Positions 42,033 to 58,472 of a stretch of 64,000 bases of DNA are shown piece after piece; the first letter of the stretch is position 1; each line of letters starts with the position of its first letter. The notes under the pieces were generated by a model. It did not search any database. It saw only the letters and a program-made list of their open reading frames with translations, and was not told the DNA's origin. The position numbers and the translations under genes are program-made. Source of the stretch: a virus; IMG/VR virus record IMGVR_UViG_3300037264_003220, positions 1 through 64,000 of that record. One strand, given 5' to 3'.

Positions 42033-42045
42033 TATTGTTGCCTTA

Positions 42046-43398: not shown

Positions 43399-43412
43399 AA
43401 TAATCCTCCTCT

Positions 43413-44096
43413 TTAAAAGTTCGGGTCTGTAATACCATCAACAATCGTTATAAGACCGTTGACATCTGGTATTTGAATCTTGTCAATCAATTCAGCTTCG
43501 GCTATGGACAATGTGTCTTCAAATTCGGTGTAAACTTCAACATTCAATTCGTGAGAGAAAATAGGGTCATTGCCTATTTTTTCATAACTTTCTCCGACAA
43601 GATTAATATCGGTTATCTCAATTCCAGCAATTCTGAATTTTTCAAAAACCAAAAATCGCAGCGCCGAGATAAGCTTATCCGTAATTCTCTCAACTTTCTT
43701 GGGGTTATAATCATAGACCTTAATGTTGACGCTCAAATTTAATGGGCCGCCGTATCTTTCGCCTACGACTCCTGTCTGAGTCATGCCGTTTAAAAATACG
43801 TCACCCATCAATGGCTCTTGAAACTCTCTATTCAAGGAACGGAAGAAGCTTCTCCCGCCGACAATATCAACCACGATAATGGGATAAATTCGGAACTGAA
43901 CAGGAAAATGCTCAACTACGGTAATCTTCGTCGTCTTGTTGTCGGCGTTCCAAGTAAAGTCTGTATCAGACGCCGGAACAGGCGGTGACTGTTCAGGAAA
44001 TTGCGCGTCCGGCAACCCGCTTATGGCGAAAAATTGCTGGATTATGCTGATGAACGTCATTCGTGTAAATCGTTTCGCGCGTAAAATCATCAGCAC
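43413..44096 (-). CDS. Tail terminator/completion protein
   Basis: Immediately upstream of sheath; YP.I.V motif. Confidence 0.6.
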   Translation of the reverse strand: MLMILRAKRFTRMTFISIIQQFFAISGLPDAQFPEQSPPVPASDTDFTWNADNKTTKITVVEHFPVQFRIYPIIVVDIVGGRSFFRSLNREFQEPLMGDVFLNGMTQTGVVGERYGGPLNLSVNIKVYDYNPKKVERITDKLISALRFLVFEKFRIAGIEITDINLVGESYEKIGNDPIFSHELNVEVYTEFEDTLSIAEAELIDKIQIPDVNGLITIVDGITDPNF

Positions 44097-44974
44097 GCCC
44101 CTCCTTGTAAATATGGAGCCAACAAGTCTGGCGCTATCAATTGTGGATGTTTATAAGCCAAGTCTGTACGTTCCAGCTCATTCATTTCAAAATCCTGATG
44201 CGTAATCAGGTCACGTTGAAAATAAGGCGTCACGTTCAAAATTTCAAATCGTCTATTTTCTCGGTCAATCAAAATATCCCTATCATGCAGTCTAGGCGTC
44301 CAAATCGTCCATGACCGTGGAACTCGCTGCTTCCTGAGTCCATACGTCGCCAGTTCTTTCAAAGCTGCCATGTTGTAATACCGAACCCTAATTTTGATAG
44401 GGTTAAAATAAGTCACTGTGTCGGCGCGACCATAATCTTCTTCTGTGTTGGCATTGATTTCTTTCTGTTGGCGCTTAAACAGCCAAAAATCGCCGCCATC
44501 CTGCTCCAAAAGCCACATATTTCGGCGCCTTATTTCTTCAAAGAAAAATTTCTGCTGGATGTTGGTCGGATACATGCCGCTGCGCGATTCAATCGTGACC
44601 GTGCTAATTTTTGTCTGTGGGGCTGTGAAAGTCATATTCATATCCCCAAAAGGAGACACGTCAAACGCTGGCAAATTCTCATATGTAATCGGATTCGACG
44701 GCGGACTTTCACCAAGCAAATTCACCGACGTAACGGAATAATACGGGTCTGTGTCGATAATAATAGGGACATTGCTATCTAAGAAACTCGTCGACTGAAT
44801 CAAAGACACATTCAATTTCGTGAAATCACCATACGGCGTATAATTTCGATAAACATTAAATCCGCTCACGCCATTGAGTGCGTCCCAATAAAGACGCACT
44901 TGCGTCTCAGGGAGATTTTGCCCTGTTGCCAACAGATTGCGAGCTATGACGTTACTAGGCGGTACGCATGACAT
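44090..44974 (-). CDS. Neck/head-closure protein with N-terminal FN3-like domain
   Basis: L.W....GFNVYR...F.D...YY.VT.VN..GES.PS; C-terminal W....P.L..RD.L....RF.I. Confidence 0.7.
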   Translation of the reverse strand: MSCVPPSNVIARNLLATGQNLPETQVRLYWDALNGVSGFNVYRNYTPYGDFTKLNVSLIQSTSFLDSNVPIIIDTDPYYSVTSVNLLGESPPSNPITYENLPAFDVSPFGDMNMTFTAPQTKISTVTIESRSGMYPTNIQQKFFFEEIRRRNMWLLEQDGGDFWLFKRQQKEINANTEEDYGRADTVTYFNPIKIRVRYYNMAALKELATYGLRKQRVPRSWTIWTPRLHDRDILIDRENRRFEILNVTPYFQRDLITHQDFEMNELERTDLAYKHPQLIAPDLLAPYLQGGAC

Positions 44975-45449
44975 AATCAATAACTCCACTCGATGCTAAT
45001 TCATTCGGACTGACCAGTGTCTCTTTCACAGATGTCAATGGGAACCCTGCCTTTTTATAAGCTTCATCAACCCATCCAGAACAAACTTGGTGACAATGCA
45101 AAAGTCCCATTCTTCCCAAAACCATATCAATAAAGCTGTAATGCTCTCCAATATTCAAATAACACCATGAAATAGCTCGTGTTTTAATAATGTCTCCACA
45201 CATGGGTCGATAAATAACTTTCGCTCTTATATCATCAGCGATGAATCGAAATCGTGGGCGCGGCCACACCATTTCAACCGCTAAATCAGGCTCGGTACTC
45301 ACCATCGCCACATGTGTATACCCTGGATAAGTCATCTTCCCCATCTCGCCACCAATCTTCTGAAGCCAGGAAAATATTCGATGTTTCCAATTCCCATCAT
45401 CTGGATAAAAAATCAAATCTCCTGGCTTCAAAATACTCACTGCGTTCAT
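44955..45449 (-). CDS. Permuted papain-like (NlpC/P60, YiiX-like) enzyme
   Basis: PGDLIF, THVAM (His), Y, CS..V..AY (Cys), SP.EL. Confidence 0.8.
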   Translation of the reverse strand: MNAVSILKPGDLIFYPDDGNWKHRIFSWLQKIGGEMGKMTYPGYTHVAMVSTEPDLAVEMVWPRPRFRFIADDIRAKVIYRPMCGDIIKTRAISWCYLNIGEHYSFIDMVLGRMGLLHCHQVCSGWVDEAYKKAGFPLTSVKETLVSPNELASSGVIDYVMRTA

Positions 45450-46087
45450 TGAAAAAATTCCGTTAAAATATTGAAATATTTTATTTCTGTCGCGCTTAGT
45501 CCATTCGGACAATAACAATGAACCCGAAGTTTCATATATGTCGGGAATGCCATTGATTCATCACTAAGAAAGCTTAATTGAACTCCTGATGCAGTGTGAA
45601 CATTCTGAATCATATTTGGCATCAACATTTGGTCTGTTGGATTCATTAAAACGTCGGCGCTAATGTAATCATTTTCGTCATTAAAGTTTGAATAAAGATG
45701 CCCGCCACGGAAATAAACCGTTGCAGGCCAAGACAAATCTACAAATGAATATGTCATTCCTGGCGCCACAATTGCTTGAAATCCTTTCCATTTGTTGTAA
45801 GTATTTGCAGGCTGCGGAGAAATGGATACCCTAGCGGGGCGCCCAACCCCTGCGCGAATAATCAAAGATTGATTAAATGAAGCCATGTAATTATTCTCGA
45901 ATTCCGTAGCATCTGGATTCGCACTTCCGTCAATTAATTTAGGCAAATCGTATTGCCAATTAATGCCATTAGAGTCAGGCCCAACGAGACGGTAAGAGCT
46001 ACCAATATCAACATACTGATTGGTAAGTCCTTTAGAAATAATGCAGAGATTTTTAAAGTCAGCCCACGTTTTAATTATTAATTCCAT
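45446..46087 (-). CDS. Hypothetical virion-associated protein
   Basis: W.DFK...D...FE.NY motif; within late operon. Confidence 0.65.
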   Translation of the reverse strand: MELIIKTWADFKNLCIISKGLTNQYVDIGSSYRLVGPDSNGINWQYDLPKLIDGSANPDATEFENNYMASFNQSLIIRAGVGRPARVSISPQPANTYNKWKGFQAIVAPGMTYSFVDLSWPATVYFRGGHLYSNFNDENDYISADVLMNPTDQMLMPNMIQNVHTASGVQLSFLSDESMAFPTYMKLRVHCYCPNGLSATEIKYFNILTEFFQ

Positions 46088-49000
46088 TAAACTTCCTCCA
46101 CCCATTCCACAACATAACTAAAGTTCCCACCTGTAACGGTGACTCCATTAAAGTTGACGGCTACCCCTTCTCCCGCGCCGCGCAAAGTAATAGCTTTATC
46201 TGGTTTAAGAGCCAAAAATAAATCATAAGGCGGAGAAGTCGTAGCGCCAGATGAGCCAGGTGCGACAGCTGGAATCATCATGCGGTATGACGCTGTTGTC
46301 CCGACTGCCGCGCCAAGCCCAGTCGGATTAGCCGTATAAGAACGAACTGTTGCCGTGGCTGCCGCATCTGTCGAATCATGCGAGACAGCTGTTTGCAAAG
46401 CAGATGTCCCACCCGTGTTCACGGCGGAACGTTTAATTAAACGCACATCTTCAATGCTTTGAGTTGTTTGCGAACCAGATATGGCAATTCGCATAATGCG
46501 AATAGTTTTTGTTGCAGACCCATAAATCGTAAACACATCTGTTGCTGTTGCCGCAGAAGCAATGCTGGGAGCAGAAGCGGAATACGTAACTTGTTCTGAC
46601 GTGCCTTGCAAAGCAACCTTTAAACTGCCCGCTTGCGTCAATGCTCGCGGTAACGCTTCAACAACTGGGCACAGCGCAGTCAATAATCTCAAATAAGTTG
46701 TCGCTATCGCTCCATTATTCGTTACCAATATTCTGAAATATAAACACACGGCTTGAAATGTCCTGCCGTCTCCAATTCCAGCTCGCGGAGTGAATGAATC
46801 AACAATATCCCAATTAACATTGTCGGTTGATTGTTGAACTTGAATAGTGCAATCCTGGCTCGCAATGAAATTAATTTGTATCCCAGAAATTCCTACAGTT
46901 GTTTCACCAGCGCCTGTAAAAGTAGCCCCAGCAGCCAAATTTGCAGTAGAGTTATTAGATTGAGATGTTTCAACATCCTGAGTAATGCCAACAGCTAAAT
47001 AACGATTGTTGTTCCGAACTATCCCTTCCATATACCCAACGCCATCTGTCACTCGAACAGGCAAATAATTTAAAGCAGAAAGCGTTAAACCATTTACAAG
47101 TGTCAAGTTTTCAGGAATCGCTGTTTGGTCTGCGGCAACGACAACAGGTAAAGACCCGCTCATTGCTTTTTGCCCATTTGTAAGACCAATAACGGCAGAC
47201 GAAACAATGGTGGTAAGTTGACTGACCTGCTGCGATTCATAAAGTTGAATCGTCGTCAATTGAGACACTTCAAGTGCCACGGCAGCATTCAAATTACTTA
47301 ACTGCGTTATCTCTTGAGACATTAAAACATTGGCTGTTAATCCATTTACGACCTGTTGACTATTGGACGAATTCAATGTGCTGAGTTGGGCAACTTCTTG
47401 AGCCAATGTCGTATTGATTGTCGTTAATTGAGTTATTTCTAAAACTACGGCAGCGTTAAGATTTGAAAGCTCAGTGACTTCTTGACTCGATAAAACTATT
47501 TGAGCCGCTTGAGCTGACGCCGTTGCCACGGAAGTATTAAGAGTTGACAATTGAGCCACTTGTTGACTTTCATAAAGTTGGATGGTTGTGAGCTGCCCCA
47601 CTTCAACGGACACAGCCATATTTAAGTTAGAAAGTTGAGTAATTTGTTGAGAAACAAGAATATTTTCAGCACTCTCAAAACCAGTGTTTGAAATAATTTG
47701 AGATAGCTGAGAGACCTCTTGAGCCAACAAAGAGACCTGGTTATCGCTGGACGTGTTCAATGTTGAAAGCTGAGCAACCTCTTGGACTAAAGTCGTATTG
47801 ACAGTCGTTAATTGAGAAACCTCTAAAGCAACGGCTAAATTGAGATTGGTTAATTGATTAACCTGTTGAACCATCAAATAAACATCCGAATCTGGCGTCG
47901 TCAAAAGTTGTGATAACTGAGAAACTTCTTGCGCTCCATATAATTGCAATGTCGATAATTGAGTTATCTCCTGAGATAAATAGGGACGAGTGTCGATTGA
48001 TGGAGACCCCGTATTGGTCATAATCTGAGACAACTGAGAAATTTCCTGGGAGCCGTATAGTTCAAGCGTTGTCATTTGAGTCACAACGTTTGACAGCCTG
48101 GCATCAATCGAAGTCAATTGCGAAACCTGTTGAGCCTCGTAAATTCCAATCGTGGTCAGTTGAGCCACTTCCAGAGAAACAGACACCTCAAGATTGCTGA
48201 GTTGACCAACTTGCTGAGCGCCATAAAGCTCAAGCGTTGATAATTGAGTTATTTCCTGAGCTAAATAAGGGCGAATGTCGACTTGAGAAACGCCAGTGTT
48301 GGCGATAATTTGAGAAAGCTGCCCTACCTCTTGAACCAATAAAGTTGTCTGAGCATCTTGTTTATTTTGAACTTGCGTAAGCTGTCCGACCTGCTGCGAT
48401 TCATAAAGTTCGATTGTCGTTAATTGAGTAACGACAGTGGACAGGCGCCCATCAATACTGGTCAATTGCGCGACCTGTTCGTACTCATACAGACCGATAG
48501 TCGTCAATTGACTAACTTCTAAAACAACGGAAACATTCAAATCGTTGAGTTGTGAGATTTGTTGAGAGCCATAAAATTCAATCGTGGAAAGCTGAGAAAC
48601 TTGCTGATTTAAGATGGGCCTCGTATCAATATCGGCTACGCCAGTGTTGGTGATAATTTGACTTAATTGTGAAATTTCATGAGATAATAATACGGTCTGG
48701 TCTTGCTGGTTTGTTTCGACCTGAGAAAGTTGAGCAACCTGTTGATTGGCGACAACAACAATATTGGTTAAACCGTCTTGAAGTGATTCTGTTGTAGATT
48801 TAATTTTGTCGAAAGTTTGAGTAAATCCATCGGCAATGGTGGCGATAGAAACGCGATTCAATAATTCCAATTCATCCGTATTAAGATTTATGCTGTCGAC
48901 GTTAATAGACAGCCCAGCCAATGATTGCAGGATGCTTAACTGAGTCGCTTCTGTAGAAACGCGAATTTGAATATCGGACAATTGACCGACTTCTTGAGTC

Positions 49001-49197
49001 AATAATAAAGATATGTCACTTAATTGACTGACTTGCTGAATCGTCCCAGTAGTTTCGACCGCTATTTTATTAAGCGCATCCGAATCTTCCTGAGATAAAT
49101 TGACAGTGCCTACTCTCGCCGATATTTCTCTGCCAGTTGTGCCGTCGGCATTATGAATATTGACATCGTTGCCGCCTGTTATTCCACCAAAACTCAT
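46087..49197 (-). CDS. Ser/Thr/Gln-rich coiled-coil fibre with about 30 [QE][VI]xQL[ST] repeats
   Basis: Repeats with about 14-aa period; GQK.M..SLPVV.A.DQ motif; beta-rich C-terminal domains. Confidence 0.75.
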   Translation of the reverse strand: MSFGGITGGNDVNIHNADGTTGREISARVGTVNLSQEDSDALNKIAVETTGTIQQVSQLSDISLLLTQEVGQLSDIQIRVSTEATQLSILQSLAGLSINVDSINLNTDELELLNRVSIATIADGFTQTFDKIKSTTESLQDGLTNIVVVANQQVAQLSQVETNQQDQTVLLSHEISQLSQIITNTGVADIDTRPILNQQVSQLSTIEFYGSQQISQLNDLNVSVVLEVSQLTTIGLYEYEQVAQLTSIDGRLSTVVTQLTTIELYESQQVGQLTQVQNKQDAQTTLLVQEVGQLSQIIANTGVSQVDIRPYLAQEITQLSTLELYGAQQVGQLSNLEVSVSLEVAQLTTIGIYEAQQVSQLTSIDARLSNVVTQMTTLELYGSQEISQLSQIMTNTGSPSIDTRPYLSQEITQLSTLQLYGAQEVSQLSQLLTTPDSDVYLMVQQVNQLTNLNLAVALEVSQLTTVNTTLVQEVAQLSTLNTSSDNQVSLLAQEVSQLSQIISNTGFESAENILVSQQITQLSNLNMAVSVEVGQLTTIQLYESQQVAQLSTLNTSVATASAQAAQIVLSSQEVTELSNLNAAVVLEITQLTTINTTLAQEVAQLSTLNSSNSQQVVNGLTANVLMSQEITQLSNLNAAVALEVSQLTTIQLYESQQVSQLTTIVSSAVIGLTNGQKAMSGSLPVVVAADQTAIPENLTLVNGLTLSALNYLPVRVTDGVGYMEGIVRNNNRYLAVGITQDVETSQSNNSTANLAAGATFTGAGETTVGISGIQINFIASQDCTIQVQQSTDNVNWDIVDSFTPRAGIGDGRTFQAVCLYFRILVTNNGAIATTYLRLLTALCPVVEALPRALTQAGSLKVALQGTSEQVTYSASAPSIASAATATDVFTIYGSATKTIRIMRIAISGSQTTQSIEDVRLIKRSAVNTGGTSALQTAVSHDSTDAAATATVRSYTANPTGLGAAVGTTASYRMMIPAVAPGSSGATTSPPYDLFLALKPDKAITLRGAGEGVAVNFNGVTVTGGNFSYVVEWVEEV

Positions 49198-50471
49198 ACG
49201 GTTCCTCCATTTGCATAAATCTGCAAATTCGTCGTCACTGTAGTTGTGACGTATATTTTTTCCGCGTTCTGCCAATTAAAATCAAATTGACCCTTAAACA
49301 CGGGAATCGGCGTACTCAATGTTGAATTAAATTTCACAGATACTGGCTGCGACACCGACAAATAAACATCCTGCATCCGTGCGCCAAAATCATAAAGAAC
49401 GTCCGTTAATCCAGCTGCCTGAGTCGCCTCATTTACATAATACTTTCCATGAGGCGAAGCGATAGTGACACTAACAGAAAGCCCTTCCAAAGTTTGCAGG
49501 ACGCTCAACTGCGTCACTTCTTGATTTAACGTCGTTGAACTAAAGTTGAAACACAGTCCCTGCAAATCTTGAAGGATGCTCAACTGCGTCACTTCCTGAG
49601 CCAAAGAAGGAGCGTCAAAATTGATGCACAATCCTTCCAACTCTTGAAGAATACTCAGTTGCGTCGTTTCTTGAGCCAATGCCGGAGAGTCAAATGTCAA
49701 TCCTTGCAGCTGGCTTAAAATACTAAGCTGAGTGACCTCAGTTGAAACACGAATTTGAATATCTGAAAGTTGAGTCACTTCTTGAGATAAAAGACTCTCA
49801 ACGCTTAAAGACTGTTGACGAATAAGACTCTCCAATGTGCTCAACTGCGTCACTTCCTGGGCGACCAAAGTAATAATATTGGTCAACCCTTCGAGCAGCT
49901 CAAGCTTCATGTCAGTCAATCCGTCTTGAATGGAGATAGTGGACGATTGCATGGTCGCCAACATGAGCGTTATTCCATCGGCAACCGTGGCAGTGTTAAG
50001 CCTCATCAATAATTCAAGCTCGTCCGTGTTGACATCAATCTTCCCAATATTGATGCACAGCCCGTTTAAGGCACTTATAATGTTTGTCATGCCTTCGCTA
50101 TTGGAAACAATCAGCTTATCCAAAAGCGCAATTTGTGTAAGCTGGCTAGATTCCTGAGCCAACGTCGGACTTTCAACGCTCAGGCTCCACATCCCATCCG
50201 CATTTGGTAATGCTTCAAGGTCATGCTTTAACCCTTGAGTGTCAATTCCCTGAATAATAACTTTGCCAATGGTGATTGGCGGCAGCGAAATTTCCGTATT
50301 AACCGTCAGCGCGTATTGGTCTGTGGTTCCGTCGACCAACGCAACTTGCAGCGGGACAATCACTCCATCAGAGCGCTGCCCCGCCAATACAGAAACCCAT
50401 TCCGAGTCTGCGCTCCTCGGAAAGTGTTTCTTATTGAGATTCGGATGCCATTCAGGGAATGTTTCTGACAA
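49194..50471 (-). CDS. Second QEVTQLS-repeat virion protein
   Basis: Shares NTDELELL and LSDIQIRVSTE segments with 46087-49197; about 25-aa tandem repeats. Confidence 0.75.
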   Translation of the reverse strand: MSETFPEWHPNLNKKHFPRSADSEWVSVLAGQRSDGVIVPLQVALVDGTTDQYALTVNTEISLPPITIGKVIIQGIDTQGLKHDLEALPNADGMWSLSVESPTLAQESSQLTQIALLDKLIVSNSEGMTNIISALNGLCINIGKIDVNTDELELLMRLNTATVADGITLMLATMQSSTISIQDGLTDMKLELLEGLTNIITLVAQEVTQLSTLESLIRQQSLSVESLLSQEVTQLSDIQIRVSTEVTQLSILSQLQGLTFDSPALAQETTQLSILQELEGLCINFDAPSLAQEVTQLSILQDLQGLCFNFSSTTLNQEVTQLSVLQTLEGLSVSVTIASPHGKYYVNEATQAAGLTDVLYDFGARMQDVYLSVSQPVSVKFNSTLSTPIPVFKGQFDFNWQNAEKIYVTTTVTTNLQIYANGGTV

Positions 50472-50472
50472 T

Positions 50473-52932
50473 TTAGGCTACTCCTGCTGGTTCAAGTTTT
50501 TGCTGTTGAATCTTTTGAAGCATGGCGTCAGTAGCCTTCAAGTTATCTTCGATTTTTTTAACATGAGACGAATGGCTATTGGAACTAATAGCTTCTTTGG
50601 CTTTCACAAAAGCGTCTTTCGCTTCCACGTATTTACCTTTGTTGAAAAGAATGACTCCGATATCGTTCCAGGCTCCCCACAGTTTCGGGTCAAGCTCCAC
50701 CGTCTTTTGATACAACACAAAAGCTTCGTCATATTTTTTGTTGTGATAAAGATGAATCGCGCGAATAAAATAAGGACGTGGGTCTTTGGGAGTCAGTTCA
50801 CACTGGCGCTCCGCCAAAGCGTAATACCAGTCATGCTTGGCTGTCAAAGAATGCTTCTCTTTCAAATATCCGAAGTGGTAAAGAGGAACCTGCGTTCGCA
50901 CTATGTTTACCTTTCTTGATTTCCCCATCTCAGCCAAGCTATCGTCAATGTCCTCATGAACGAGCCGCGTGTAAAATATGCGCGGGTCATTCACGAACAT
51001 GCGTAGCGTCTCTGACAAAACCCAATTGGCATCCCACCCATTCTCGAATGGATTGGCTTGGTAATTCCGAATCGGAACCAAATAAGCGTCGACGTTCTCT
51101 ACTTGCGCCAATTTCCATACATTTAAAAGATGGTCTTTAGGCACGATTTCGTCTGCATCAAGCCTCAAAATCCATGGTTTTGTACAGGCTCTTATGGCAG
51201 CGTTCCGTGGCTCTGAAAAGCCCTTAGACGGGATATCCCATGGAAACTCGACAACGCGGGCGCCCAGAGACTTGGCAATTTCTATGGTCTTATCCGTGCT
51301 GCCTGTGTCGCACACCACAACCTCATCTACAATAGGCAGGGCGCTTTGAATTGCCTGCGCTATGTTCTTTTCCTCATTCTTAGCCATGATAGATAGACTG
51401 ATTTGGTTATAGCGAGGCAGTTTAGACCGCCAATCCTTAAATTTCGTTATTTCGTCAGCCAAACGCTTTTCTTCTTCTTCGGCTCGTTTAGCTTTCACCT
51501 CTGGGGACTCAACCAAGTTCTCCGGCTTCTCCAAATGGTCAGGAGTGAAATATGTGTCAGCCCAGAGCTTATAGCCTGCGCACATCGCACGCACACAGAA
51601 ATCCCTGTCTTCGCCGCGAACGTTGCTGGGGAGGTTTTGAACGCGGCTGTATCCAACGCCACGGCTGATAGGCTCTCTGCCAATCAAGGTGCAGGCGCCG
51701 AGACCTCCAACAGGATACGTCCCAGGGCGTTTTAACATGGATAGGAACTCAGCATTGATTTCATACCCGCCACGAATCCACACATTGGGGAGTGGCTGCG
51801 CATCTTTATGTCCCCAAGTTGCCCAAAATACTTCGGACACGATAGGGCGCTCCAGACCAACCAAATGCTTAAGCAAGCGCGGGTGTTTCATCACGATATC
51901 CGAATCCACCATGAACACGGCTTCGGATTGGAATCTATCTAAAGAGCCAAGCACGCGATTACGCATGAAAGCCATATTCGCCAGCTTCTGGTCTTCCCAG
52001 GAATGCTCTTTATCGCTGGCGTTCCCAAAATTAATGGTCTCTATTTCAACAAGCTTGTAAACCTTGTCTTTGCTCTCTGCCCACTTCTTCAATATCTCAA
52101 ACGTGCCATCCTGAGAGTCATTGACGATAAAATAGAAGCTCAATTTTTCCTTTGGGTAATCCAGCAAGTCCATCCCAGCCAAAAATTTATCAATGACCCA
52201 TTCACGGTTGCGAACCAATGAAGCCACGACAATGTTGGGCCATTCAATTTCATTTCTGAATGGCTTTAATTGAGCTGGCTTAAATATGCTATGGGCGTGC
52301 TCAAGATTGATGCCAGTCGCTCTCTGCAAGTAAAACTCATATTTACGTTCTTTATCTTTATCGTCAGCCCATCCCCAATGATTCAAAAACAAATCAGAGC
52401 GAGCCATGCCGCGCATTGATTGAGACACGTAAGACGGCACGCACCCGCAATGAATGTTGCCAGCGTACCCAAATGGTTTATCCTGATAACGGAACAAACG
52501 CGTAATCAGAGGACTCCAATAGCCATCTGTGCGATATTCGGTTTCATTCCACATGTCCAATAAGCGAACCGAGTACCAGTCATATTCCGTGGTCTTGATA
52601 AGCTCAGGCAATTCTTTAATAAAGCTGTCACTGAAGGTTTCATCGGCATCCTGACTGATTATCCAATCACCGTCTTTGGCGAAGCTTTTAGTCATCTCCC
52701 ATTGCGTATTGCGTAGTTTGGATTCGTCTATTCCAAACATGGATTGCTCATATTGAGACGTGAAAAATTTGACCTTGGGATACGACCGACACAATGATTC
52801 AGTCTTCCCGCCGTCATCGCTCTTGTCATCTAAAACAAGAATCAGGTCGGCAAACGCTGACGCGTTGTCAAGCATCCGCTTCAAATATCTCTCGCTTTCA
52901 TTTCTTACCAACAGTTGAACTATGACACTCAT
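50473..52932 (-). CDS. Triple GT-A (GT2-like) glycosyltransferase with C-terminal TPRs
   Basis: Domain 1 RNE...LDD.SDD...DADE; domain 2 VDSD...GLGACTL...GED; domain 3 KNEE...DTGSTD...FS..RN...LDADE...VHE...H.GY (SunS/GmaR-like); TPRs. Confidence 0.9.
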   Translation of the reverse strand: MSVIVQLLVRNESERYLKRMLDNASAFADLILVLDDKSDDGGKTESLCRSYPKVKFFTSQYEQSMFGIDESKLRNTQWEMTKSFAKDGDWIISQDADETFSDSFIKELPELIKTTEYDWYSVRLLDMWNETEYRTDGYWSPLITRLFRYQDKPFGYAGNIHCGCVPSYVSQSMRGMARSDLFLNHWGWADDKDKERKYEFYLQRATGINLEHAHSIFKPAQLKPFRNEIEWPNIVVASLVRNREWVIDKFLAGMDLLDYPKEKLSFYFIVNDSQDGTFEILKKWAESKDKVYKLVEIETINFGNASDKEHSWEDQKLANMAFMRNRVLGSLDRFQSEAVFMVDSDIVMKHPRLLKHLVGLERPIVSEVFWATWGHKDAQPLPNVWIRGGYEINAEFLSMLKRPGTYPVGGLGACTLIGREPISRGVGYSRVQNLPSNVRGEDRDFCVRAMCAGYKLWADTYFTPDHLEKPENLVESPEVKAKRAEEEEKRLADEITKFKDWRSKLPRYNQISLSIMAKNEEKNIAQAIQSALPIVDEVVVCDTGSTDKTIEIAKSLGARVVEFPWDIPSKGFSEPRNAAIRACTKPWILRLDADEIVPKDHLLNVWKLAQVENVDAYLVPIRNYQANPFENGWDANWVLSETLRMFVNDPRIFYTRLVHEDIDDSLAEMGKSRKVNIVRTQVPLYHFGYLKEKHSLTAKHDWYYALAERQCELTPKDPRPYFIRAIHLYHNKKYDEAFVLYQKTVELDPKLWGAWNDIGVILFNKGKYVEAKDAFVKAKEAISSNSHSSHVKKIEDNLKATDAMLQKIQQQKLEPAGVA

Positions 52933-53642
52933 TTTAAGTCTCCTTTCATTTTTTCGATTTTCAATTCCTCTAATATCACTGACGTGGTTACTGATTTGGC
53001 ATGTTCCAAATCAAAACCAACTGCTCTACCGTCGAGATAAAATTTTTGTTTAGCCAGTCTCTTGGCTTCGTCCGCCCAGCCCCAATGAATAATTTTCACG
53101 TCACGTCGCTCTATGCCATTGTGACTTTGCAAGATGTATTGCGGCAACAATGGAATATGATTAACGCCAGCGGGCAAATTTGCTGGTTCATCTTGATATC
53201 TAAAAAATATCTCTTTGACCGGAGACCACATGCCGTCCACGCGAAAATGTGTTGGCGACCACATGTCTAAAATTCTGAATCTATACCAGTCATAAATTCC
53301 TTTGGTTAGGTCGTCGACGACCTGAGCAAATGATTTATCCATTTCTTCGTCGGCGTCAAGAACGAGAATCCAGTCGCCCTTCTTCGCCACTTCACGAACT
53401 TTCTCCCATTGGACTTCACGCAACTTCGGTTCATTGATAGGGTACATGGACACATCAAACGAGGATTCATGAAAAATAACTTTTGGGTATGATTTAAAGA
53501 GAAACTTTGTCGCGCCTCCGTCGTTGCTTTTATCATCCAGTACCACAAAAGAATCAACAATGTCTCGAACGGATTCCAACACTCGCTCAATATAAGGCGA
53601 ATGGGCTTCGTTCTTCACTATCATAGTGGCTATAATCGACAT
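52929..53642 (-). CDS. GT2-like glycosyltransferase (paralog of domain 1 of 50473-52932)
   Basis: KNE...LDDKSND...LDADE...DMW...RVDG.W...HWGW. Confidence 0.88.
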   Translation of the reverse strand: MSIIATMIVKNEAHSPYIERVLESVRDIVDSFVVLDDKSNDGGATKFLFKSYPKVIFHESSFDVSMYPINEPKLREVQWEKVREVAKKGDWILVLDADEEMDKSFAQVVDDLTKGIYDWYRFRILDMWSPTHFRVDGMWSPVKEIFFRYQDEPANLPAGVNHIPLLPQYILQSHNGIERRDVKIIHWGWADEAKRLAKQKFYLDGRAVGFDLEHAKSVTTSVILEELKIEKMKGDLK

Positions 53643-54272
53643 TTATTTCTCCACGGCAAAAGCATAAACCGCTAATTGGTCAACGTGGCAATCAACATCA
53701 TATTCGCGGCTACGCAAAACATCCACTGGCATGACGGGATTGACGCCAAGGTTCTTGGCGAACCTGACAAAGTTATCCAACGAAAAATCATACGGACTTG
53801 GTTCGATGCTGACATCCACAGTCAAATAGAATTTTCCACCAGGTTTTATCACTCTCATACATTCATTAAATGGAATCATGGGGTCGTCGCCAACATGCTC
53901 CAAAACGCTGATACAAAATGCAGCATCAAAACTGCAATCTTGGAACGGCATTTTTCTTATGTCGGCAACGCACGCAGAAAGGTTGGCAATCTCTTTCTCG
54001 TGCACGACCACGGCTGAGTCAATATCCACGTTAATGACTTGCTTGGCTTTTTTGCACAGGTACTTTTGAAGCACGGAATGTCCGGCGCCAGCATCAAGAA
54101 CTTTATGAGTTTCATTCAACCAATTACTTTGAATAATCGCCCAAGGATATTCGACTTGTCTACTCCATGCTAAGCGACCATGATTTAAAATTTCTAAATC
54201 AGATTTAATTTTTATGAAATCTGGGTCACTCAACCACGTTTTCAACATAAATCCATGATTCATTATTTTCAT
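53643..54272 (-). CDS. Class I SAM-dependent methyltransferase
   Basis: VLDAGAG, VDID, ADIRKMPF...SFD...ISVLEH, RV.KPGG. Confidence 0.9.
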   Translation of the reverse strand: MKIMNHGFMLKTWLSDPDFIKIKSDLEILNHGRLAWSRQVEYPWAIIQSNWLNETHKVLDAGAGHSVLQKYLCKKAKQVINVDIDSAVVVHEKEIANLSACVADIRKMPFQDCSFDAAFCISVLEHVGDDPMIPFNECMRVIKPGGKFYLTVDVSIEPSPYDFSLDNFVRFAKNLGVNPVMPVDVLRSREYDVDCHVDQLAVYAFAVEK

Positions 54273-55024
54273 TTGCTTAACCTTTTAATGAGACAATCAC
54301 GAAAATTTGACTTATTTAGCTCGTGTTCCCAAATAACCTTACAATTAAACCCATATCGTTTAAATGCTGCCACTCTTTGTTGACGATTATTTTTTATCCC
54401 GCCAACTCCGCCATTGGGATAACATTTTTGACAACCATGCCAATAACAACCAAAAAGCTCAACGACTTCTTTCTTCCCATTTACATTGACGAAATCTGGA
54501 TTCATCCATCCAACGGTAAAGCTACCATCGCCGACATATTTATATGGCAAATTGGCGTCGTCAATAATTTTTTGCAATTCTAGTTCCGTCTTATTCGGCT
54601 TCATAGAAAACTTGCCATCATTCATCATTTGCGCCGCCACTTCTCTATGAAGCTTCATCATGGTTTTACTTTTATGAAACTTTTTCATTTTCAAAAGTTC
54701 TTCTTTTGTATGCTTGCGACCAAAGGTCGGACTTTTACTGCCAGACAAGCCATACATAGGGTTATTTTTTCCAATTTTCAATTCAGAGATTCTTTTCAAT
54801 CGAGAATCTGTTTCTTTAGTAAGACCATAATTCCACAATTTTTTCCCATAAGACGGATTATCTTTCCCGAACATCACATGCTTATTTTTTCTCATGCGTT
54901 CTTTCGTTGCTTCACTGTGCTTCTTCCCATAAAAAGAATTATCAGCGCCCATCCTTGAAACAGAAATACGCTTCATGCCAGGATGTAAATCCTTTGTAAT
55001 TCCTTTATTCCAAGCTATTCGCAT
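54269..55024 (-). CDS. NUMOD3 Vsr/DUF559-like homing endonuclease
   Basis: WNKG.TK, N.FYGKKHSE, PNKTE, PDFVNVNGKKEVVELFGCYWH, IWEHE. Confidence 0.88.
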   Translation of the reverse strand: MRIAWNKGITKDLHPGMKRISVSRMGADNSFYGKKHSEATKERMRKNKHVMFGKDNPSYGKKLWNYGLTKETDSRLKRISELKIGKNNPMYGLSGSKSPTFGRKHTKEELLKMKKFHKSKTMMKLHREVAAQMMNDGKFSMKPNKTELELQKIIDDANLPYKYVGDGSFTVGWMNPDFVNVNGKKEVVELFGCYWHGCQKCYPNGGVGGIKNNRQQRVAAFKRYGFNCKVIWEHELNKSNFRDCLIKRLSK

Positions 55025-55027
55025 TAT

Positions 55028-55912
55028 TTATTCTATGACGTTAAGCTCGTGCGCCCAGAATGCGCCTTCTTTCCCGTCATTCCACTTTATCGCGAAAGAG
55101 CCATCCTTGTTTTTCTTCTGAACTGTCCCAATGGCGTTTCCTTTGGCAACTTTAGCAAGACGAGTCACGGGCTTATATCCTTCTTCTTTTGGAACGGAGA
55201 ATGAGGCTTTCTTTTCCATCTGCGGAACACTGAGAACGCTCAAAACGGCGCTCGCGATACGCAAAGACGTTTCCCGCTTCTTATTTGTTTCAATGAATTC
55301 ATCCAAAGATGTTTTGTCTGAAACAGCGCCAAACTTTTTGAAAGAACAAAATTCTTTCGCATTGGCTTTGAGATAAAACGGACACGGCTCGTCTCCGCTT
55401 GTTCCCCTGCACGCTTTCACTTCAATCTTACTGGTGTCGATAGGACAGGTAACGCATTCAGCTTTCAACTCAGCAAACACTTCAATCCCTGGTCTGGCTT
55501 TCTGGGCATTCTCAATTTGCACAAGAGAGAATCCGGCTTCCCAATCCAAGTCAAGAATCTTCGCTTTGCGATTACCATATTTCTTGGCAATGTATGCCAA
55601 AACTTCCTTACCAATAACATTCGCGTCCCATTTGGTATTATTGGCATCTTTCAAATCCCACTGCGCAGCTACAAACAACGAATCGTCCTGCGACGAATAA
55701 TGAGACCATTGTTCAGTCACCTTCCCAGCATCGACCGCCATGTATTCCTGCGGCTCATTCTGAGGTCTGGCTTCCCATATGGTTTTTGCCGTATTCCACT
55801 TCCATGTTTTACCAGCCCCAGCATCGGTCATCGGTTTTGGAACGGCTGGCTTATCTGCCACCCTTGTGTGTCTTTGCTCCTTTATTTGTTGGAGCCTATC
55901 TTTAATATTCAT
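55028..55912 (-). CDS. Hypothetical head-associated protein
   Basis: 294 aa, GGAGGAGG RBS, Cys cluster, SH3-like C-terminus. Confidence 0.65.
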   Translation of the reverse strand: MNIKDRLQQIKEQRHTRVADKPAVPKPMTDAGAGKTWKWNTAKTIWEARPQNEPQEYMAVDAGKVTEQWSHYSSQDDSLFVAAQWDLKDANNTKWDANVIGKEVLAYIAKKYGNRKAKILDLDWEAGFSLVQIENAQKARPGIEVFAELKAECVTCPIDTSKIEVKACRGTSGDEPCPFYLKANAKEFCSFKKFGAVSDKTSLDEFIETNKKRETSLRIASAVLSVLSVPQMEKKASFSVPKEEGYKPVTRLAKVAKGNAIGTVQKKNKDGSFAIKWNDGKEGAFWAHELNVIE

Positions 55913-55953
55913 TGTGTGTTCCTCCTCCTCGATTTAAAACTACGATACGACGA

Positions 55954-57936
55954 TTACTTTGGTTTTTTAACGCAAAGCGACCGCCGATTCATGTAATCTT
56001 CAACTTCGAACATTTCATCAGTCATTGGGTCTTTCACTGTCGGTTCTCTGAAAAAAACCATTACCTGCCATCTATTGAGCGGCTGCACAAATATTGCCAT
56101 GGCTTTATAAAACGGGACGCATTTTGAGCCGTCGTCATTTAATAAATGCCCATTCAAATCAGGCTGGCTCTCAGAAGGAACCCCATCGGGTAAGACGGGA
56201 CGGCTGGTAGATTTTTGTTCAGGGGCTTTCTTTTGCGGCGCCTTTTCTTCTGATTGCTCTTGAGAATATTCGCTTTGCGGAGTCGAGATTTTGGTTTGTT
56301 TAAATCTTTCATTGGCTACTCCTGTAATCACCCCAGAAGCGTCGTCAATCATCTCTTGCGCGTTCTCATAAATGGCAGTCAGTGACGTTCTGAAATCAAT
56401 CAAATTATCCGCTATTTCTTCAGGGTCGACTATTTGCAAACTGCCGTCGGACGTGTCATTGTCGACAGCCCAAAACAAACGCCCATCAGCTGAATCTATG
56501 TGACCAACGGCTCGATACAATCCTAAGCCAGGCTTATACTCATCCCAATCTATAACGATTTCATTGGGGCTAAAAAATCCAGACGCCTCGCGAATGCCGT
56601 AATCCATCCTGGTCATCAACCCTTTGCTTTCAAGAGCGCTTTCTTCGTAATAACGCCAATCCAAATCTTTCAAAACTTCATCATCGGTTTTGCGACGCAC
56701 GAATTCGATTTCATTGGGATGAACTTCAAAAATGGTTTGACCATTTATCGGAGTCTCCCATCGAACCACGATATCAACATCCGCTTCATGGTGCATTTTA
56801 GAAATCGCAATGACCTCGCCCTGAGTCTTCGTGTTGATATCTTTGACGATATCGCCAACGCTTAAGGTCAAGGTCTTGTCTATTTCAGAGCCAAGCTTCA
56901 TCAAAGAATAATTCCCGTATCCATCCTGAACAAAGGTTCCTTTGCGCAGGAAGCTAAACAAGGAATCCATGGGGTATTTTTGATGAGACTGGCGCAGTAG
57001 CTCGGCTAAATAAGGGGTGATACGCTGGATAAAGATGGGCTGCTGGAGCGGAGAGACTTCGCCATGACTCAAGGTCACGGCTTTGATGGCTGCCAATTCT
57101 TTCTTGTCTCTCACGAGCGGCAGAATATTGTCGATTGAAAATGAAACGCTATTTGCCGTAATCTTGAACTCGCGCCGAAGCCACGGATTATAAACGGCTC
57201 GCACGAACATAGGAGACACGGAAGCGACAGGCGTATAGAAATTCACATCACTCCCAGCGTCACCTGGTACGTCTTCAACAAGATTCTTGGGCACGCGCAT
57301 AACTGCAATTTGGTAGCCCTTATGATTCGAGGCAATACTGAGAGAATCCGATAGTGTTTCATCGGCTTTTAACCCTGTCATGGTCGGGTCTGTGAATCTG
57401 TCCACGGCGGCGTAGAGCGTCAAAAAAGATTGAGCTGACGACTTATAAGAAATCCCCAAATACTGCTCCACCAAAGACCAGGCAGCGTCAATCTTGCCCT
57501 GGTCAATCAATTTTTTGAATTGAGCAATATCTTCCTCGTCAGCCTGCTGTAAAAACTTGGCTGTTTCCATGACTCCCATCCATCCAGGATAAAACACGGA
57601 ACGGCGCCGTAGCCGAGATTGAACAGTTCCTTCCGGCTTGCTTACGGATACGATACAGGCTGGGTCTATGATTTTCTTGGCATAGATTCCCAGAGGTTCA
57701 ATGATTGTCACAGCGTCTTTAGGAACATCCAACTCGACTACGGCAGGCTTTCCGAGCATGGCGTCTGGGAAAGCCAGTTTAAAATCATCACTGACGTTTG
57801 ATTGAATCAACGCAAATGAAAGAGCTTCGTCAAACGAATCTGTTAAAAAGGCGGGCTGCTTGTTTGACCAATCCCAAATTCCAATTTTCGCCACTTTGCT
57901 GGCTATAATGTCCGTCGTTCCGTAAAAGAGTTTCAT
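55954..57936 (-). CDS. Multidomain protein with ADP-ribosyltransferase-fold (KptA/Tpt1-like) domains
   Basis: LFYGT...G....AFLT...A..FA...PAVVELDV...I.P..I; second degenerate copy TLYAAV...; SH3-like VGD.V...GEV...VRW. Confidence 0.55.
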   Translation of the reverse strand: MKLFYGTTDIIASKVAKIGIWDWSNKQPAFLTDSFDEALSFALIQSNVSDDFKLAFPDAMLGKPAVVELDVPKDAVTIIEPLGIYAKKIIDPACIVSVSKPEGTVQSRLRRRSVFYPGWMGVMETAKFLQQADEEDIAQFKKLIDQGKIDAAWSLVEQYLGISYKSSAQSFLTLYAAVDRFTDPTMTGLKADETLSDSLSIASNHKGYQIAVMRVPKNLVEDVPGDAGSDVNFYTPVASVSPMFVRAVYNPWLRREFKITANSVSFSIDNILPLVRDKKELAAIKAVTLSHGEVSPLQQPIFIQRITPYLAELLRQSHQKYPMDSLFSFLRKGTFVQDGYGNYSLMKLGSEIDKTLTLSVGDIVKDINTKTQGEVIAISKMHHEADVDIVVRWETPINGQTIFEVHPNEIEFVRRKTDDEVLKDLDWRYYEESALESKGLMTRMDYGIREASGFFSPNEIVIDWDEYKPGLGLYRAVGHIDSADGRLFWAVDNDTSDGSLQIVDPEEIADNLIDFRTSLTAIYENAQEMIDDASGVITGVANERFKQTKISTPQSEYSQEQSEEKAPQKKAPEQKSTSRPVLPDGVPSESQPDLNGHLLNDDGSKCVPFYKAMAIFVQPLNRWQVMVFFREPTVKDPMTDEMFEVEDYMNRRSLCVKKPK

Positions 57937-58376: not shown

Positions 58377-58421
58377 TTTTATCGTCCCTCAAAAACAATC
58401 TTATAAATCAATACGTTTTTC

Positions 58422-58452
58422 ATTTATGATTCACGCAACTCAATCGTATTCT
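58422..58452 (+). promoter_or_regulatory. Phage promoter motif copy 3 (TTATGA-N17-TATTCT)
   Basis: ATTTATGattcacgcaacTCAATCGTATTCT followed by AGGAGG and ATG at 58473. Confidence 0.75.
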
Positions 58453-58472
58453 TTAAGTAGGAGGGTACAAAT

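What the first reader, a model, noticed from the sequence alone, without database searches (positions are those of the whole stretch)
46087..54272. Candidate virion glycosylation system: four GT-A domains, TPRs and a methyltransferase next to Ser/Thr-rich repeat fibres
Seen: inside the late structural operon, a SAM methyltransferase (53643-54272), a GT2 (52929-53642) and a triple-GT/TPR protein (50473-52932) are adjacent or overlapping. They are followed immediately by two S/T/Q-rich repeat proteins (49194-50471, 46087-49197). Established: GT2+TPR enzymes (SunS, GmaR-type) glycosylate proteins, and some mycobacteriophages glycosylate virions using GTs encoded among structural genes. Inference: the TPR-bearing domain primes protein acceptors, the other GT domains extend the glycan and the methyltransferase caps it, giving a multi-sugar, methylated virion coat. 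No nucleotide-sugar synthesis or base-modification genes are adjacent, which favours protein targets over DNA.
Basis: partly seen in the sequence, partly recalled or inferred. Interest (0 to 1): 0.85.

Follow-up and report, generated by a model that had tools for sequence, protein, structure and literature searches.

The report
Phage glycosylation genes beside fibre genes
An uncultured sediment phage carries a methyltransferase and four sugar-adding enzyme domains inside its particle-building operon, most likely to coat its own structural proteins with a methylated sugar chain, as some mycobacteriophages do with unrelated enzymes.

Summary
On the minus strand, between the major capsid and tail sheath genes, lie a SAM methyltransferase, a 237-aa GT-A enzyme, an 819-aa fusion (GT-A, GT-A, GT-A, TPR) and two proteins built from a [QE][VI]x[QE]L[ST] repeat. 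Start and stop codons touch or overlap.

The third GT domain is closest to GmaR and SunS, which glycosylate proteins or peptides. The second resembles procollagen galactosyltransferase. All enzymes lack membrane segments, and DxD motifs are invariant in all three fused domains.

Two 83-84% complete relatives keep the order, with the fusion (75-77% identity) as conserved as the sheath. No thymidylate-synthase-family, epimerase or nucleotidyltransferase gene was found, so DNA is an unlikely target.

New here:
- The same enzyme families form a conserved cluster in Bacillota, mostly spore-forming genera, next to DUF6385 proteins.
- The larger fibre carries a remotely DUF6385-like domain, but its relatives do not.

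The enzymes show no detectable homology to Corndog gp35-38, so the plan is analogous.

The acceptor is unproven. A more distant phage keeps the GTs without repeat fibres.

The scan had noted this same stretch before (e1-6121401), not other DNA.

Verdict: probable virion protein glycosylation; a new variant of a known kind.

The parts
53643..54272 (-). SAM-dependent class I methyltransferase, 209 aa
   Evidence: Pfam Methyltransf_11 E 4.8e-19. 67-69% identical orthologues sit at the same place in L005 and L006. About 30%-identical homologues occur in the bacterial GT loci, once fused to the double GT (L076, 720 aa). No membrane segment.
52929..53642 (-). Stand-alone GT-A (GT2_4-type) glycosyltransferase, 237 aa; paralogue of domain 1 of the fusion
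   Evidence: Pfam PF13704 28.0 bits and PF00535 24.2 bits. 46% identity to residues 1-223 of the fusion, E 7e-62. DADEE motif visible in the translation. In the L006 genome its orthologue lies elsewhere (L007 9974-10795) and an HNH endonuclease fills the slot.
50473..52932 (-). 819-aa fusion of three GT-A domains and a TPR tail
   Evidence: Pfam. Nine full-length relatives at 37-77% identity. DxD motifs invariant in all three domains across 10 sequences: D95-A-D97-E98, D343-S-D345, D592-x-D594-E595. 75-77% identity to L005 and L006, like the sheath at 72-75%.
52258..52932 (-). Fusion domain 1 (residues 1-225), GT2_4 type
   Evidence: Pfam PF13704 at residues 13-101. Homologous to the C-terminal half of the bacterial 520-aa double GT.
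51493..52257 (-). Fusion domain 2 (residues 226-480), Anp1/GT62-like
   Evidence: Pfam Anp1 41.2 bits. Matches the N-terminal GT-A domain of procollagen galactosyltransferase 1, E 1.4e-7. Homologous to the N-terminal half of the bacterial double GT, E 1.5e-57.
50833..51417 (-). Fusion domain 3 (residues 506-700), GT2, GmaR/SunS-like
   Evidence: GmaR E 4.8e-22 with DADE aligned; SunS 2.2e-10. NCBIfam SunS family 67.8 bits, far below its cut-off of 350. 33% identity to bacterial GT2-TPR proteins, E 6e-32.
50563..50832 (-). TPR repeats (residues about 701-790)
   Evidence: Pfam TPR_1 39.2 bits and TPR_2 37.6 bits. Matches consensus TPR proteins in the PDB.
49194..50471 (-). Smaller repeat protein, 425 aa: conserved N-terminal 115 aa, repeat region, small C-terminal domain
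   Evidence: 5 motif copies against 0.04 expected. Orthologues in L005, L006 and L009 with a nearly invariant N-terminus. No Pfam, PHROG or NCBIfam match.
46087..49197 (-). Larger repeat protein, 1036 aa from the ATG at 49197
   Evidence: 29 motif copies against 0.09 expected. Repeat spacing is mostly 14, 21, 25 or 28 residues. The repeat part is 42% identical to the L005 and L006 orthologues.
46609..47001 (-). DUF6385-like beta domain of the larger repeat protein (residues about 733-863)
   Evidence: A family profile (123 sequences) hit only DUF6385 clusters among 1062 bacterial ORFs: best E 1.2e-5, reversed control 0.034. hhalign probability 93.6%, P 2e-7. Pfam's own DUF6385 model does not hit.
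46093..46596 (-). C-terminal tip domain of the larger repeat protein (residues about 868-1035)
   Evidence: With the domain before it, it has 5248 relatives at E<=0.001 among 1.84 billion representatives. It is the sole module in most of the 80 IMG/VR loci fetched. No solved relative by sequence.

Best explanation
This is a phage-encoded protein glycosylation module, expressed with the virion genes, that decorates one or more structural proteins in the cytoplasm before or during assembly.

Shown:
- Four GT-A-type domains, a TPR tail and a class I methyltransferase are encoded as one tightly packed gene string inside the head-to-tail structural module.
- All are soluble.
- All three fused domains keep their DxD metal and nucleotide-sugar motifs.
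- The set is as conserved among relatives as the tail sheath.

Inferred:
- The GT2+TPR unit (domain 3) behaves like GmaR or SgtA. It uses its TPR to hold a protein acceptor and puts the first sugar on Ser or Thr from a host UDP-sugar.
- Domains 1 and 2 and the stand-alone paralogue extend the chain.
- The methyltransferase methylates the glycan.
- The most likely acceptors are the two adjacent repeat proteins, whose [QE][VI]xQL[ST] unit offers 34 regularly spaced Ser/Thr. About 0.35-0.4 of the probability of this explanation goes to these proteins.
- Capsid, decoration or tail proteins are the alternative acceptors.
For: - Domain calls. No window with Kyte-Doolittle mean above 1.6 in any enzyme, against 38 such windows in a membrane-protein control.
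- Position between capsid and sheath genes. Abutting or overlapping start and stop codons.
- No excess of promoter-like (33 against 31.3) or terminator-like (19 against 17.1) sites in 42000-60000.
- Domain 3 to GmaR, 4.8e-22 over 181 residues with DADE aligned; SunS 2.2e-10. Domain 2 to procollagen galactosyltransferase, 1.4e-7.
- SgtA of C. difficile has the same GT-A plus TPR plan and puts O-GlcNAc on Thr of the spore protein BclA3 (PMC7157674, passages).
- The order p660, p294, MT, GT, fusion, repeat, repeat is kept in L005 and, apart from the displaced GT237, in L006. L009 and L011 each hold one half of it. The fusion is 75-77% identical in L005 and L006 and 66% in L009 and L011.
- In L018 (sheath 41% identical) the domains are split into two genes but still lie in the head-to-neck region.
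- Bacterial counterpart: of 79 loci with the double GT, 68 also hold GT2-TPR genes and 48 hold DUF6385 proteins. MT homologues occur in some loci, one fused to the double GT.
- Precedent: Corndog has an O-methyltransferase and three GTs between its portal and protease genes (PMC4351075).
- Mycobacteriophage capsid and tail tube glycosylation is reported, but seen here only as cited in PMC12619734 and PMC12363180.
- No ThyA-family, epimerase or NTP_transferase gene in 0 of 3 genomes.
Against: - No glycan has been seen. Everything rests on homology of 25-33% identity within the very broad GT2/GT-A superfamily, where acceptor type is not predictable from sequence.
- The function of the bacterial counterpart cluster is itself unknown.
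- In the L014 and L015 type contigs, the 37%-identical triple GT sits beside LicD, a cytidylyltransferase, an epimerase and ABC sugar-transport genes, a set that suggests cell-wall polymer work.
- Capsid and tube have no Ser/Thr-rich C-terminal tail of the kind reported for mycobacteriophages.
- Repeat proteins are absent from L018 and from L012-L017, although the GTs are present.
- The DUF6385-like tip is absent from the L005, L006 and L009 fibres.
- Only 3 of 29 IMG/VR loci with that domain have a GT2-like gene within 10 kb.
- The enzymes show no detectable similarity to Corndog gp35-38.
- RNA evidence is only presence of matching short contigs in one metatranscriptome, which may hold DNA.
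Confidence: 0.6

Rival explanations
1. The module modifies a host component rather than the virion: a cell-wall glycopolymer such as teichoic acid, or a host surface protein such as a spore, S-layer or flagellar protein. It was captured from a Bacillota surface-glycosylation cluster and might serve exclusion of other phages or alter the lysing cell.
For: - GT2 domains are typical of polysaccharide synthesis.
- The same enzyme families form a chromosomal cluster in 78 of 80 Bacillota-titled loci.
- The L014 and L015 type contigs place a related triple GT beside LicD, CTP_transf_3, an epimerase and an ABC sugar importer.
- There are weak PHROG matches to GtrB-like O-antigen conversion, 6.8e-7.
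Against: - No membrane segment or signal-like hydrophobic stretch in any enzyme, unlike GtrB-type or teichoic-acid enzymes that act at the membrane.
- The genes are embedded in and translationally packed with late structural genes, not in an early or lysogeny module.
- The closest solved relatives act on proteins or peptides.
- Conservation equals that of the sheath.
Confidence: 0.2
2. Domain 3 is a SunS-like peptide glycosyltransferase that matures a small secreted glycopeptide (a glycocin-type bacteriocin or a lysis or signal peptide). The other domains are accessory.
For: The best PHROG is the SPbeta YolJ/SunS family, 9e-32. NCBIfam SunS family scores 7.8e-19. PDB SunS scores 2.2e-10.
Against: - The NCBIfam score of 67.8 is far below the family cut-off of 350.
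- GmaR, a protein O-GlcNAc transferase, matches far better.
- No small Cys-rich precursor or transporter gene lies in the string.
- SunS-like systems have no need for three further GT domains.
Confidence: 0.06
3. The enzymes glycosylate hypermodified bases in phage DNA to escape restriction.
For: Phage GTs often do this (general knowledge; also stated in PMC12619734).
Against: - No thymidylate-synthase-family hydroxymethylase in 0 of 3 genomes, two of them 83-84% complete.
- The genes lie among structural genes, not replication genes.
- A TPR tail and GmaR-like catalytic domain point to protein acceptors.
- The missing 16-47% of the genomes could still hide such genes.
Confidence: 0.03
4. The gene string is a selfish or decaying passenger with no role for the phage. 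Homing endonucleases flank it.
For: A homing endonuclease abuts the methyltransferase here. An HNH gene replaces GT237 in the L006 genome.
Against: - The fusion is 75-77% identical across relatives, as conserved as the sheath and more than the repeat proteins at 42-58%.
- DxD motifs are invariant in 10 of 10 sequences.
- All frames are open.
Confidence: 0.03

Closest known systems
Mycobacteriophage virion glycosylation (Corndog gp35-38; Che8, Myrna)
   Same: A methyltransferase plus several glycosyltransferases are encoded inside the virion structural operon. The enzymes are not virion parts in Corndog (PMC4351075). Capsid and tail tube glycosylation is reported (as cited in PMC12619734 and PMC12363180; Freeman 2023 itself was not held).
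   Different: - No detectable sequence similarity: best BLASTP E 0.3, profile E 0.03 or worse.
- The Corndog methyltransferase is TylF-type and its GTs are GT25-like and Glyco_tranf_2_2-like.
- Here three GT domains and a TPR are fused in one 819-aa chain.
- The host is unknown and the phage is an uncultured sediment myovirus.
- Capsid and tube lack Ser/Thr-rich C-terminal tails.
GmaR (Listeria flagellin O-GlcNAc transferase) and SgtA (C. difficile BclA3 O-GlcNAc transferase)
   Same: A GT-A catalytic domain followed by TPR repeats. Domain 3 matches the GmaR catalytic domain at 4.8e-22 with the DADE motif aligned. SgtA is described as GT-A (residues 1-260) plus four TPR, acting on Thr of a repetitive surface protein (PMC7157674).
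   Different: Here the unit is the C-terminal third of a fusion with two more GT-A domains. No SgtA sequence was compared. The donor sugar and the acceptor are unknown.
Uncharacterised Bacillota cluster: GT2-TPR (1-3 copies) + 520-aa double GT-A + DUF6385 proteins
   Same: Homologues of domain 3-TPR (33% identity, 6e-32), domains 2 and 1 (1.5e-57) and sometimes the methyltransferase (30%, 1.5e-11) lie together. Of 79 loci, 68 hold GT2-TPR genes and 48 hold DUF6385 proteins. The phage's larger fibre has a remotely DUF6385-like domain.
   Different: - Domain order is reversed in the bacterial double GT.
- The genes are separate, not fused.
- The function is unknown: one paper mentions DUF6385, by full-text search.
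- Pfam's DUF6385 model does not hit the phage protein.
SunS family peptide S-glycosyltransferases (SPbeta YolJ)
   Same: Same GT2 subfamily by PHROG (9e-32) and PDB (2.2e-10).
   Different: The score is far below the NCBIfam cut-off, 67.8 against 350. No glycocin precursor lies nearby.

Membership tests
Phage virion glycosylation systems (mycobacteriophage type) | GT genes (with or without a methyltransferase) embedded in the virion structural operon | tested here: met
   The genes lie between capsid and sheath, on the same strand with overlapping junctions. The arrangement is conserved in L005, L006, L009 and L011.
Phage virion glycosylation systems (mycobacteriophage type) | Sequence homology to the proven enzymes (Corndog gp35-38) | tested here: not met
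   BLASTP best E 0.31. Domain profiles D1, D2 and D3 best E 0.033 against 4 proteins. Che8 and Myrna enzymes were not compared.
Phage virion glycosylation systems (mycobacteriophage type) | Glycan detected on virion proteins | not testable with these tools
   Needs glycoprotein stain or mass spectrometry of virions or co-expressed proteins.
Phage virion glycosylation systems (mycobacteriophage type) | Ser/Thr-rich C-terminal extension on capsid or tail tube as acceptor (feature as cited in PMC12619734) | tested here: not met
   Capsid and tube sequences end without such a tail. The maximum Ser+Thr in 30 aa is 37%, internal.
GT-A + TPR protein O-glycosyltransferases (GmaR/SgtA type) | GT2/GT-A catalytic domain with DxD motif | tested here: met
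   PF00535 at residues 514-647. D592-x-D594-E595 invariant in 10 of 10 sequences. Aligned to DADE of GmaR.
GT-A + TPR protein O-glycosyltransferases (GmaR/SgtA type) | TPR repeats C-terminal to the catalytic domain | tested here: met
   TPR_1, TPR_2 and TPR_17 at residues 720-780. PDB consensus TPR matches.
GT-A + TPR protein O-glycosyltransferases (GmaR/SgtA type) | Transfers sugar to Ser/Thr of a protein | not testable with these tools
   An enzyme assay is needed.
SunS family peptide S-glycosyltransferase (TIGR04195) | Score above the curated family cut-off | tested here: not met
   67.8 bits against a cut-off of 350.
Pfam DUF6385 (domain in the larger repeat protein) | Match to the Pfam model above its gathering score | tested here: not met
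   No match for the protein. No six-frame match at E<=10. 1 of 20 family members matched at 0.0093.
Pfam DUF6385 (domain in the larger repeat protein) | Remote homology by profile methods | tested here: met
   The family HMM hits only DUF6385 clusters among 1062 ORFs: 17 at E<1e-3, and alignments fall on the domain. Reversed control best 0.034. hhalign probability 93.6%. Single-sequence hhalign gave only 4% and the 20-sequence alignment 13%.
DNA base glycosyltransferase systems | Companion hydroxymethylase (thymidylate synthase family) in the genome | tested here: not met
   PF00303 found in 0 of 3 genomes; the control rang in 10 of 14. The genomes are 53%, 84% and 83% complete.
GtrB-like or O-antigen-conversion membrane GTs | Membrane-spanning segments | tested here: not met
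   Maximum 19-residue hydropathy is 1.16 or less in the enzymes, against 2.44 in a membrane-protein control.
Fibritin-like segmented coiled-coil fibres | Trimeric alpha-helical coiled coil | not tested
Hydrophobic positions fall at +1, +4, +7 and +11 of the unit, which is suggestive only.

The most novel reading that the evidence does not exclude
The phage module is a compacted, fused copy of a widespread but unstudied surface-protein glycosylation system of spore-forming Bacillota, whose natural acceptors are DUF6385-domain proteins. The phage uses it to put a host-like methylated glycan on its own fibres, one of which ends in a DUF6385-like domain. The particle would then wear the same sugar coat as a host surface structure, for camouflage, adhesion or stability. 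That would make virion glycosylation a repeatedly invented phage trait well outside the actinobacteriophages, and it would assign a function to DUF6385 and its GT cluster.
Probability: 0.15. Interest if true: 0.8.

Novelty: new variant of a known kind. Interest (0 to 1): 0.55.

Why it matters
Enzyme-encoded glycosylation of phage particles has, to my knowledge and in the papers seen here, been shown only for mycobacteriophages. There it blunts antibody recognition (as cited in PMC12363180).

A second, non-homologous enzyme set in an unrelated myovirus lineage would show that the trait arose more than once. This set is fused into one chain and conserved as strongly as the tail sheath. It would also give a compact, soluble enzyme cassette that could be tested for glyco-engineering of phage fibres.

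The link to a conserved GT2-TPR, double-GT and DUF6385 cluster in Bacillota points to an unstudied bacterial protein glycosylation system. That system can be tested in cultivable spore formers.

Tried and rejected
- Close relatives by single-protein scan of IMG/VR: none. An alignment was needed.
- Cultured phages (INPHARED): the methyltransferase, GT237 and the fibre tip gave no match at E<=1e-3. The fusion matched only by single domains, 15 records, none covering 80%.
- DUF6385 in the fibre, first attempts: an HMM of the bacterial domain against 1361 phage ORFs gave nothing at E<1. Single-sequence hhalign gave 4%, and the 20-sequence alignment 13%. Only the 123-sequence family profile gave a clear result.
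- The C-terminus of the smaller repeat protein is not DUF6385-like (1.9%; P 0.63). An ESM Atlas row naming DUF6385 at 0.78 is below the tool's own threshold and was not used.
- DUF6385-like tip as a general partner of GTs in phages: rejected. Of 80 IMG/VR loci, 4 have a GT2-like gene within 10 kb: 3 of 29 with the domain, 1 of 51 without. My GT profiles came from this family only, so other GT families would be missed.
- Relatives lacking the module, for a presence/absence test: the sheath alignment found only the two known genomes in IMG/VR.
- Host: the sheath was not found in 4 Bacillota genomes or in 112 genomes of the class of a Desulfosporosinus genome. An empty answer shows nothing, so the host remains unknown.
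- Promoter and terminator scans showed no excess over shuffles.
- DNA-level tandem repeats: only one 75-nt array of 1.9 copies. The repeats are visible only at protein level.
- PDB by sequence for the fibre tip: nothing.
- Names for 10 fibre-tip relatives: none informative.
- Runs X2 and X3 hold only small shares of the stretch. X3 (soil, 4 short pieces) is not used for habitat.
- Supplementary files of papers were not asked for. Freeman et al. 2023 and its supplements, which I could not see, may list enzyme families and acceptor sites that bear on the comparison.

Full report
**What the window is.** The window is the first 64 kb of a 90,280-bp IMG/VR virus contig, rated 53% complete. It has no tRNA genes. 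PHROG scans place a portal (69170-71065), a protease (66757-68391) and a major head protein (64175-65173) upstream. Downstream lie a tail sheath (42046-43398), a tube-like protein (40588-41127), baseplate wedge proteins (31-33.4 kb) and tail fibre proteins (20.4-26 kb). The 707-aa ORF at 37659-39782 is taken as the tape measure from its position only, since it matched no PHROG. All of these are on the minus strand. The sheath's best matches among cultured phages are 26-29% identical, so this is a divergent, uncultured myovirus. A DNA run from a sediment metagenome, possibly the source, holds 99% of the sampled words.

**The observation.**
- 53643-54272 is a class I SAM methyltransferase (Methyltransf_11, 4.8e-19).
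- 52929-53642 just passes two GT2 models.
- 50473-52932 has Glyco_tranf_2_4 at residues 13-101, Anp1 at 233-373, Glycos_transf_2 at 514-647 and TPR motifs at 720-780.
- The 237-aa enzyme is a 46%-identical paralogue of the first domain of the fusion.

Gene junctions abut or overlap. The ATG at 49197 of the larger repeat protein shares ATGA with the stop of the smaller one and follows GGAGGA. Promoter-like and terminator-like sites do not exceed shuffles. The string reads as one transcription unit, but that is inferred.

**The repeat proteins.** The motif [QE][VI]x[QE]L[ST] occurs 29 and 5 times, against 0.09 and 0.04 expected, and never in the other 28,101 aa of the contig. Spacing is mostly 14, 21, 25 or 28 residues. 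The repeats are diverged at DNA level. Ser+Thr is 20-22% against a median of 12%, but tail fibres and sheath are equal, and no mucin-like tract exists. "Fibre" is an inference from repeat architecture, a conserved N-terminal 115 residues and a variable tip. The fold could not be predicted.

**What the enzymes resemble.**
- Against solved structures, domain 3 matches the GmaR catalytic domain (4.8e-22, DADE aligned) and SunS (2.2e-10).
- Domain 2 matches the N-terminal GT-A domain of procollagen galactosyltransferase 1 (1.4e-7).
- GT237 matches GmaR only weakly (0.004).
- The SunS NCBIfam model scores 67.8 bits against a cut-off of 350, so this is not a SunS-family member.
- The methyltransferase matches only generic small-molecule, lipid and sugar methyltransferases.
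- None of the enzymes has a membrane-like segment.
- In an alignment of ten full-length relatives, the DxD-type motifs of all three fused domains are invariant.

**Relatives and neighbourhoods.** A protein search gave 55 hits among 8000 scored candidates. Nine besides the window's own cover 93% or more of the fusion at 37-77% identity.
- IMG/VR holds two related genomes, of 146.6 and 144.3 kb and 84% and 83% complete.
- Both keep the order p660, p294, MT, (GT237), fusion, repeat, repeat, neck genes, sheath.
- Identities: fusion 75-77%, sheath 72-75%, MT 67-69%, repeat proteins 42-58%.
- In one of them GT237's orthologue lies about 70 kb away, and an HNH endonuclease occupies its slot.
- Two partial JGI contigs at 66% identity show the same order, one with four repeat genes in a row.
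- A more distant myovirus contig (L018, sheath 41% identical) has domains 1-2 as a 483-aa gene and domain 3-TPR as a 349-aa gene. Both lie in the head-to-neck region, and it has no repeat protein.
- A further group (L012-L017, 37% identical) has a triple GT without TPR. It lies between a nucleotide-sugar epimerase and tail genes with a tape measure, downstream of LicD, a cytidylyltransferase and ABC sugar-transport genes. This last context is the main evidence for a cell-wall reading.

**Alternatives tested.** No thymidylate-synthase-family gene, epimerase or sugar nucleotidyltransferase was found in any of the three genomes, while controls rang. GT2 matches occur only at this locus and at the displaced paralogue. 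DNA glycosylation is therefore unlikely, and donor sugars must come from the host.

**Comparison with the known phage system.** Corndog has an O-methyltransferase and three GTs between its portal and protease genes. The authors proposed capsid modification (PMC4351075, passages). Later papers cite Freeman et al. 2023 for glycans on capsid and tail tube of Che8, Corndog and Myrna (passages in PMC12619734 and PMC12363180). The paper itself was not held. The Corndog enzymes belong to other families (TylF-type MT, GT25-like and Glyco_tranf_2_2-like GTs) and show no detectable similarity to the window's enzymes. The plan is the same but the parts are not.

**A bacterial counterpart.** Shorter hits of about 520 aa came from Desulfosporosinus, Desulfotomaculum and Paenibacillus. 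They carry the same two domains in reverse order.
Of the best 80, 78 have Bacillota-type titles and 2 are Verrucomicrobia MAGs. That these are largely spore-forming genera is my own knowledge.
- Clustering 1062 neighbouring ORFs showed that, of 79 loci with the double GT, 68 also have one to three GT2-TPR proteins. 48 have proteins with Pfam DUF6385, and 47 have both.
- The phage's domain 3-TPR is 33% identical to the GT2-TPR proteins (6e-32). Domains 2-1 match the double GT (1.5e-57). The methyltransferase matches genes in seven loci, once as a fusion to the double GT.
- The whole phage module therefore mirrors a bacterial cluster of unknown function. One paper in the library mentions DUF6385.

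**The fibre tip.** The last 371 residues of the larger repeat protein have 5248 relatives at E<=0.001 among 1.84 billion representatives. They form two modules. A profile of the first module, built from 123 sequences, hit only DUF6385 clusters among the 1062 bacterial ORFs. Seventeen hits fell below 1e-3, alignments lay on the domain itself, and the reversed control's best was 0.034. hhalign gives 93.6% probability. Pfam's own model does not reach it, so this is remote homology, not membership.

Two results weaken the tip as a clue to the acceptor:
- The fibres of the three relatives lack both modules.
- Of 80 IMG/VR loci with these modules, only 4 have a GT2-like gene within 10 kb.

**Expression.** A sediment metatranscriptome from another study yielded 25 short contigs, 21 of them 99% or more identical. 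They are spread over 27 of 30 bins of 42000-60000, including the MT and GT genes. This shows the phage in an RNA library, not transcription.

**Verdict.** The most likely function is glycosylation, probably followed by methylation, of the phage's own structural proteins (confidence 0.6). The adjacent repeat fibres are the leading but unproven acceptors. This is a new variant of a known kind: analogous to the mycobacteriophage system, built from unrelated enzymes, fused into one chain, and related to an unstudied Bacillota cluster.

Noticed in passing
window 54269-55024 and 41124-42032; L003 12455-13180; L006 9462-10010: NUMOD3-type homing endonuclease genes sit directly upstream of the methyltransferase and between the sheath and tube genes. 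The two share a near-identical C-terminal stretch in the translations. A third lies beyond the window. In a relative, an HNH endonuclease occupies the place of GT237, whose orthologue is about 70 kb away.
   Followed up: partly
window 48411-48613: One contig of the RNA-library run X2 skips 201 nt of the repeat array of the larger fibre gene and has 33 other letters there. The net in-frame change is 168 nt, or 56 codons, so repeat number seems to vary in natural populations.
   Followed up: no
window 45446-46105; L009 3725-5332 and 5340-6272; L006 16471-17499: The first 70-80 residues of the 219-aa protein downstream of the fibres resemble the N-termini of extra fibre-like genes in relatives (29-34% identity). 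This suggests a shared attachment module.
   Followed up: no
L030-L109 (bacterial loci): A conserved Bacillota cluster holds GT2-TPR genes, a double GT-A gene and DUF6385 proteins. Some DUF6385 proteins carry Thr/Pro/Gly-rich repeats. SipL/SPOCS-domain proteins lie nearby in 4 loci.
   Followed up: partly
L014 616-8124; L015: A different phage-like contig type carries ABC sugar-transport permeases and a binding protein, LicD, a cytidylyltransferase and an epimerase. These lie directly upstream of a triple GT and tail genes. Whether this is phage or flanking host DNA was not settled.
   Followed up: partly
window 59856-61283: A 475-aa acidic protein has two long internal repeats (a KKAD..GV.NKDIKPGT.D..IG unit seen twice in the translation). 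It matches no PHROG.
   Followed up: no
window 58473-58943 (+): A multi-pass membrane protein is encoded on the opposite strand inside the minus-strand operon: hydropathy maximum 2.44, with 38 windows above 1.6.
   Followed up: no
window 44955-45518: The 187-aa protein gives weak matches to the YaeF family of permuted papain-like enzymes (4.2e-4, far below cut-off) and to phrog_1128 (4.6e-7). It is 61-68% identical in relatives.
   Followed up: no
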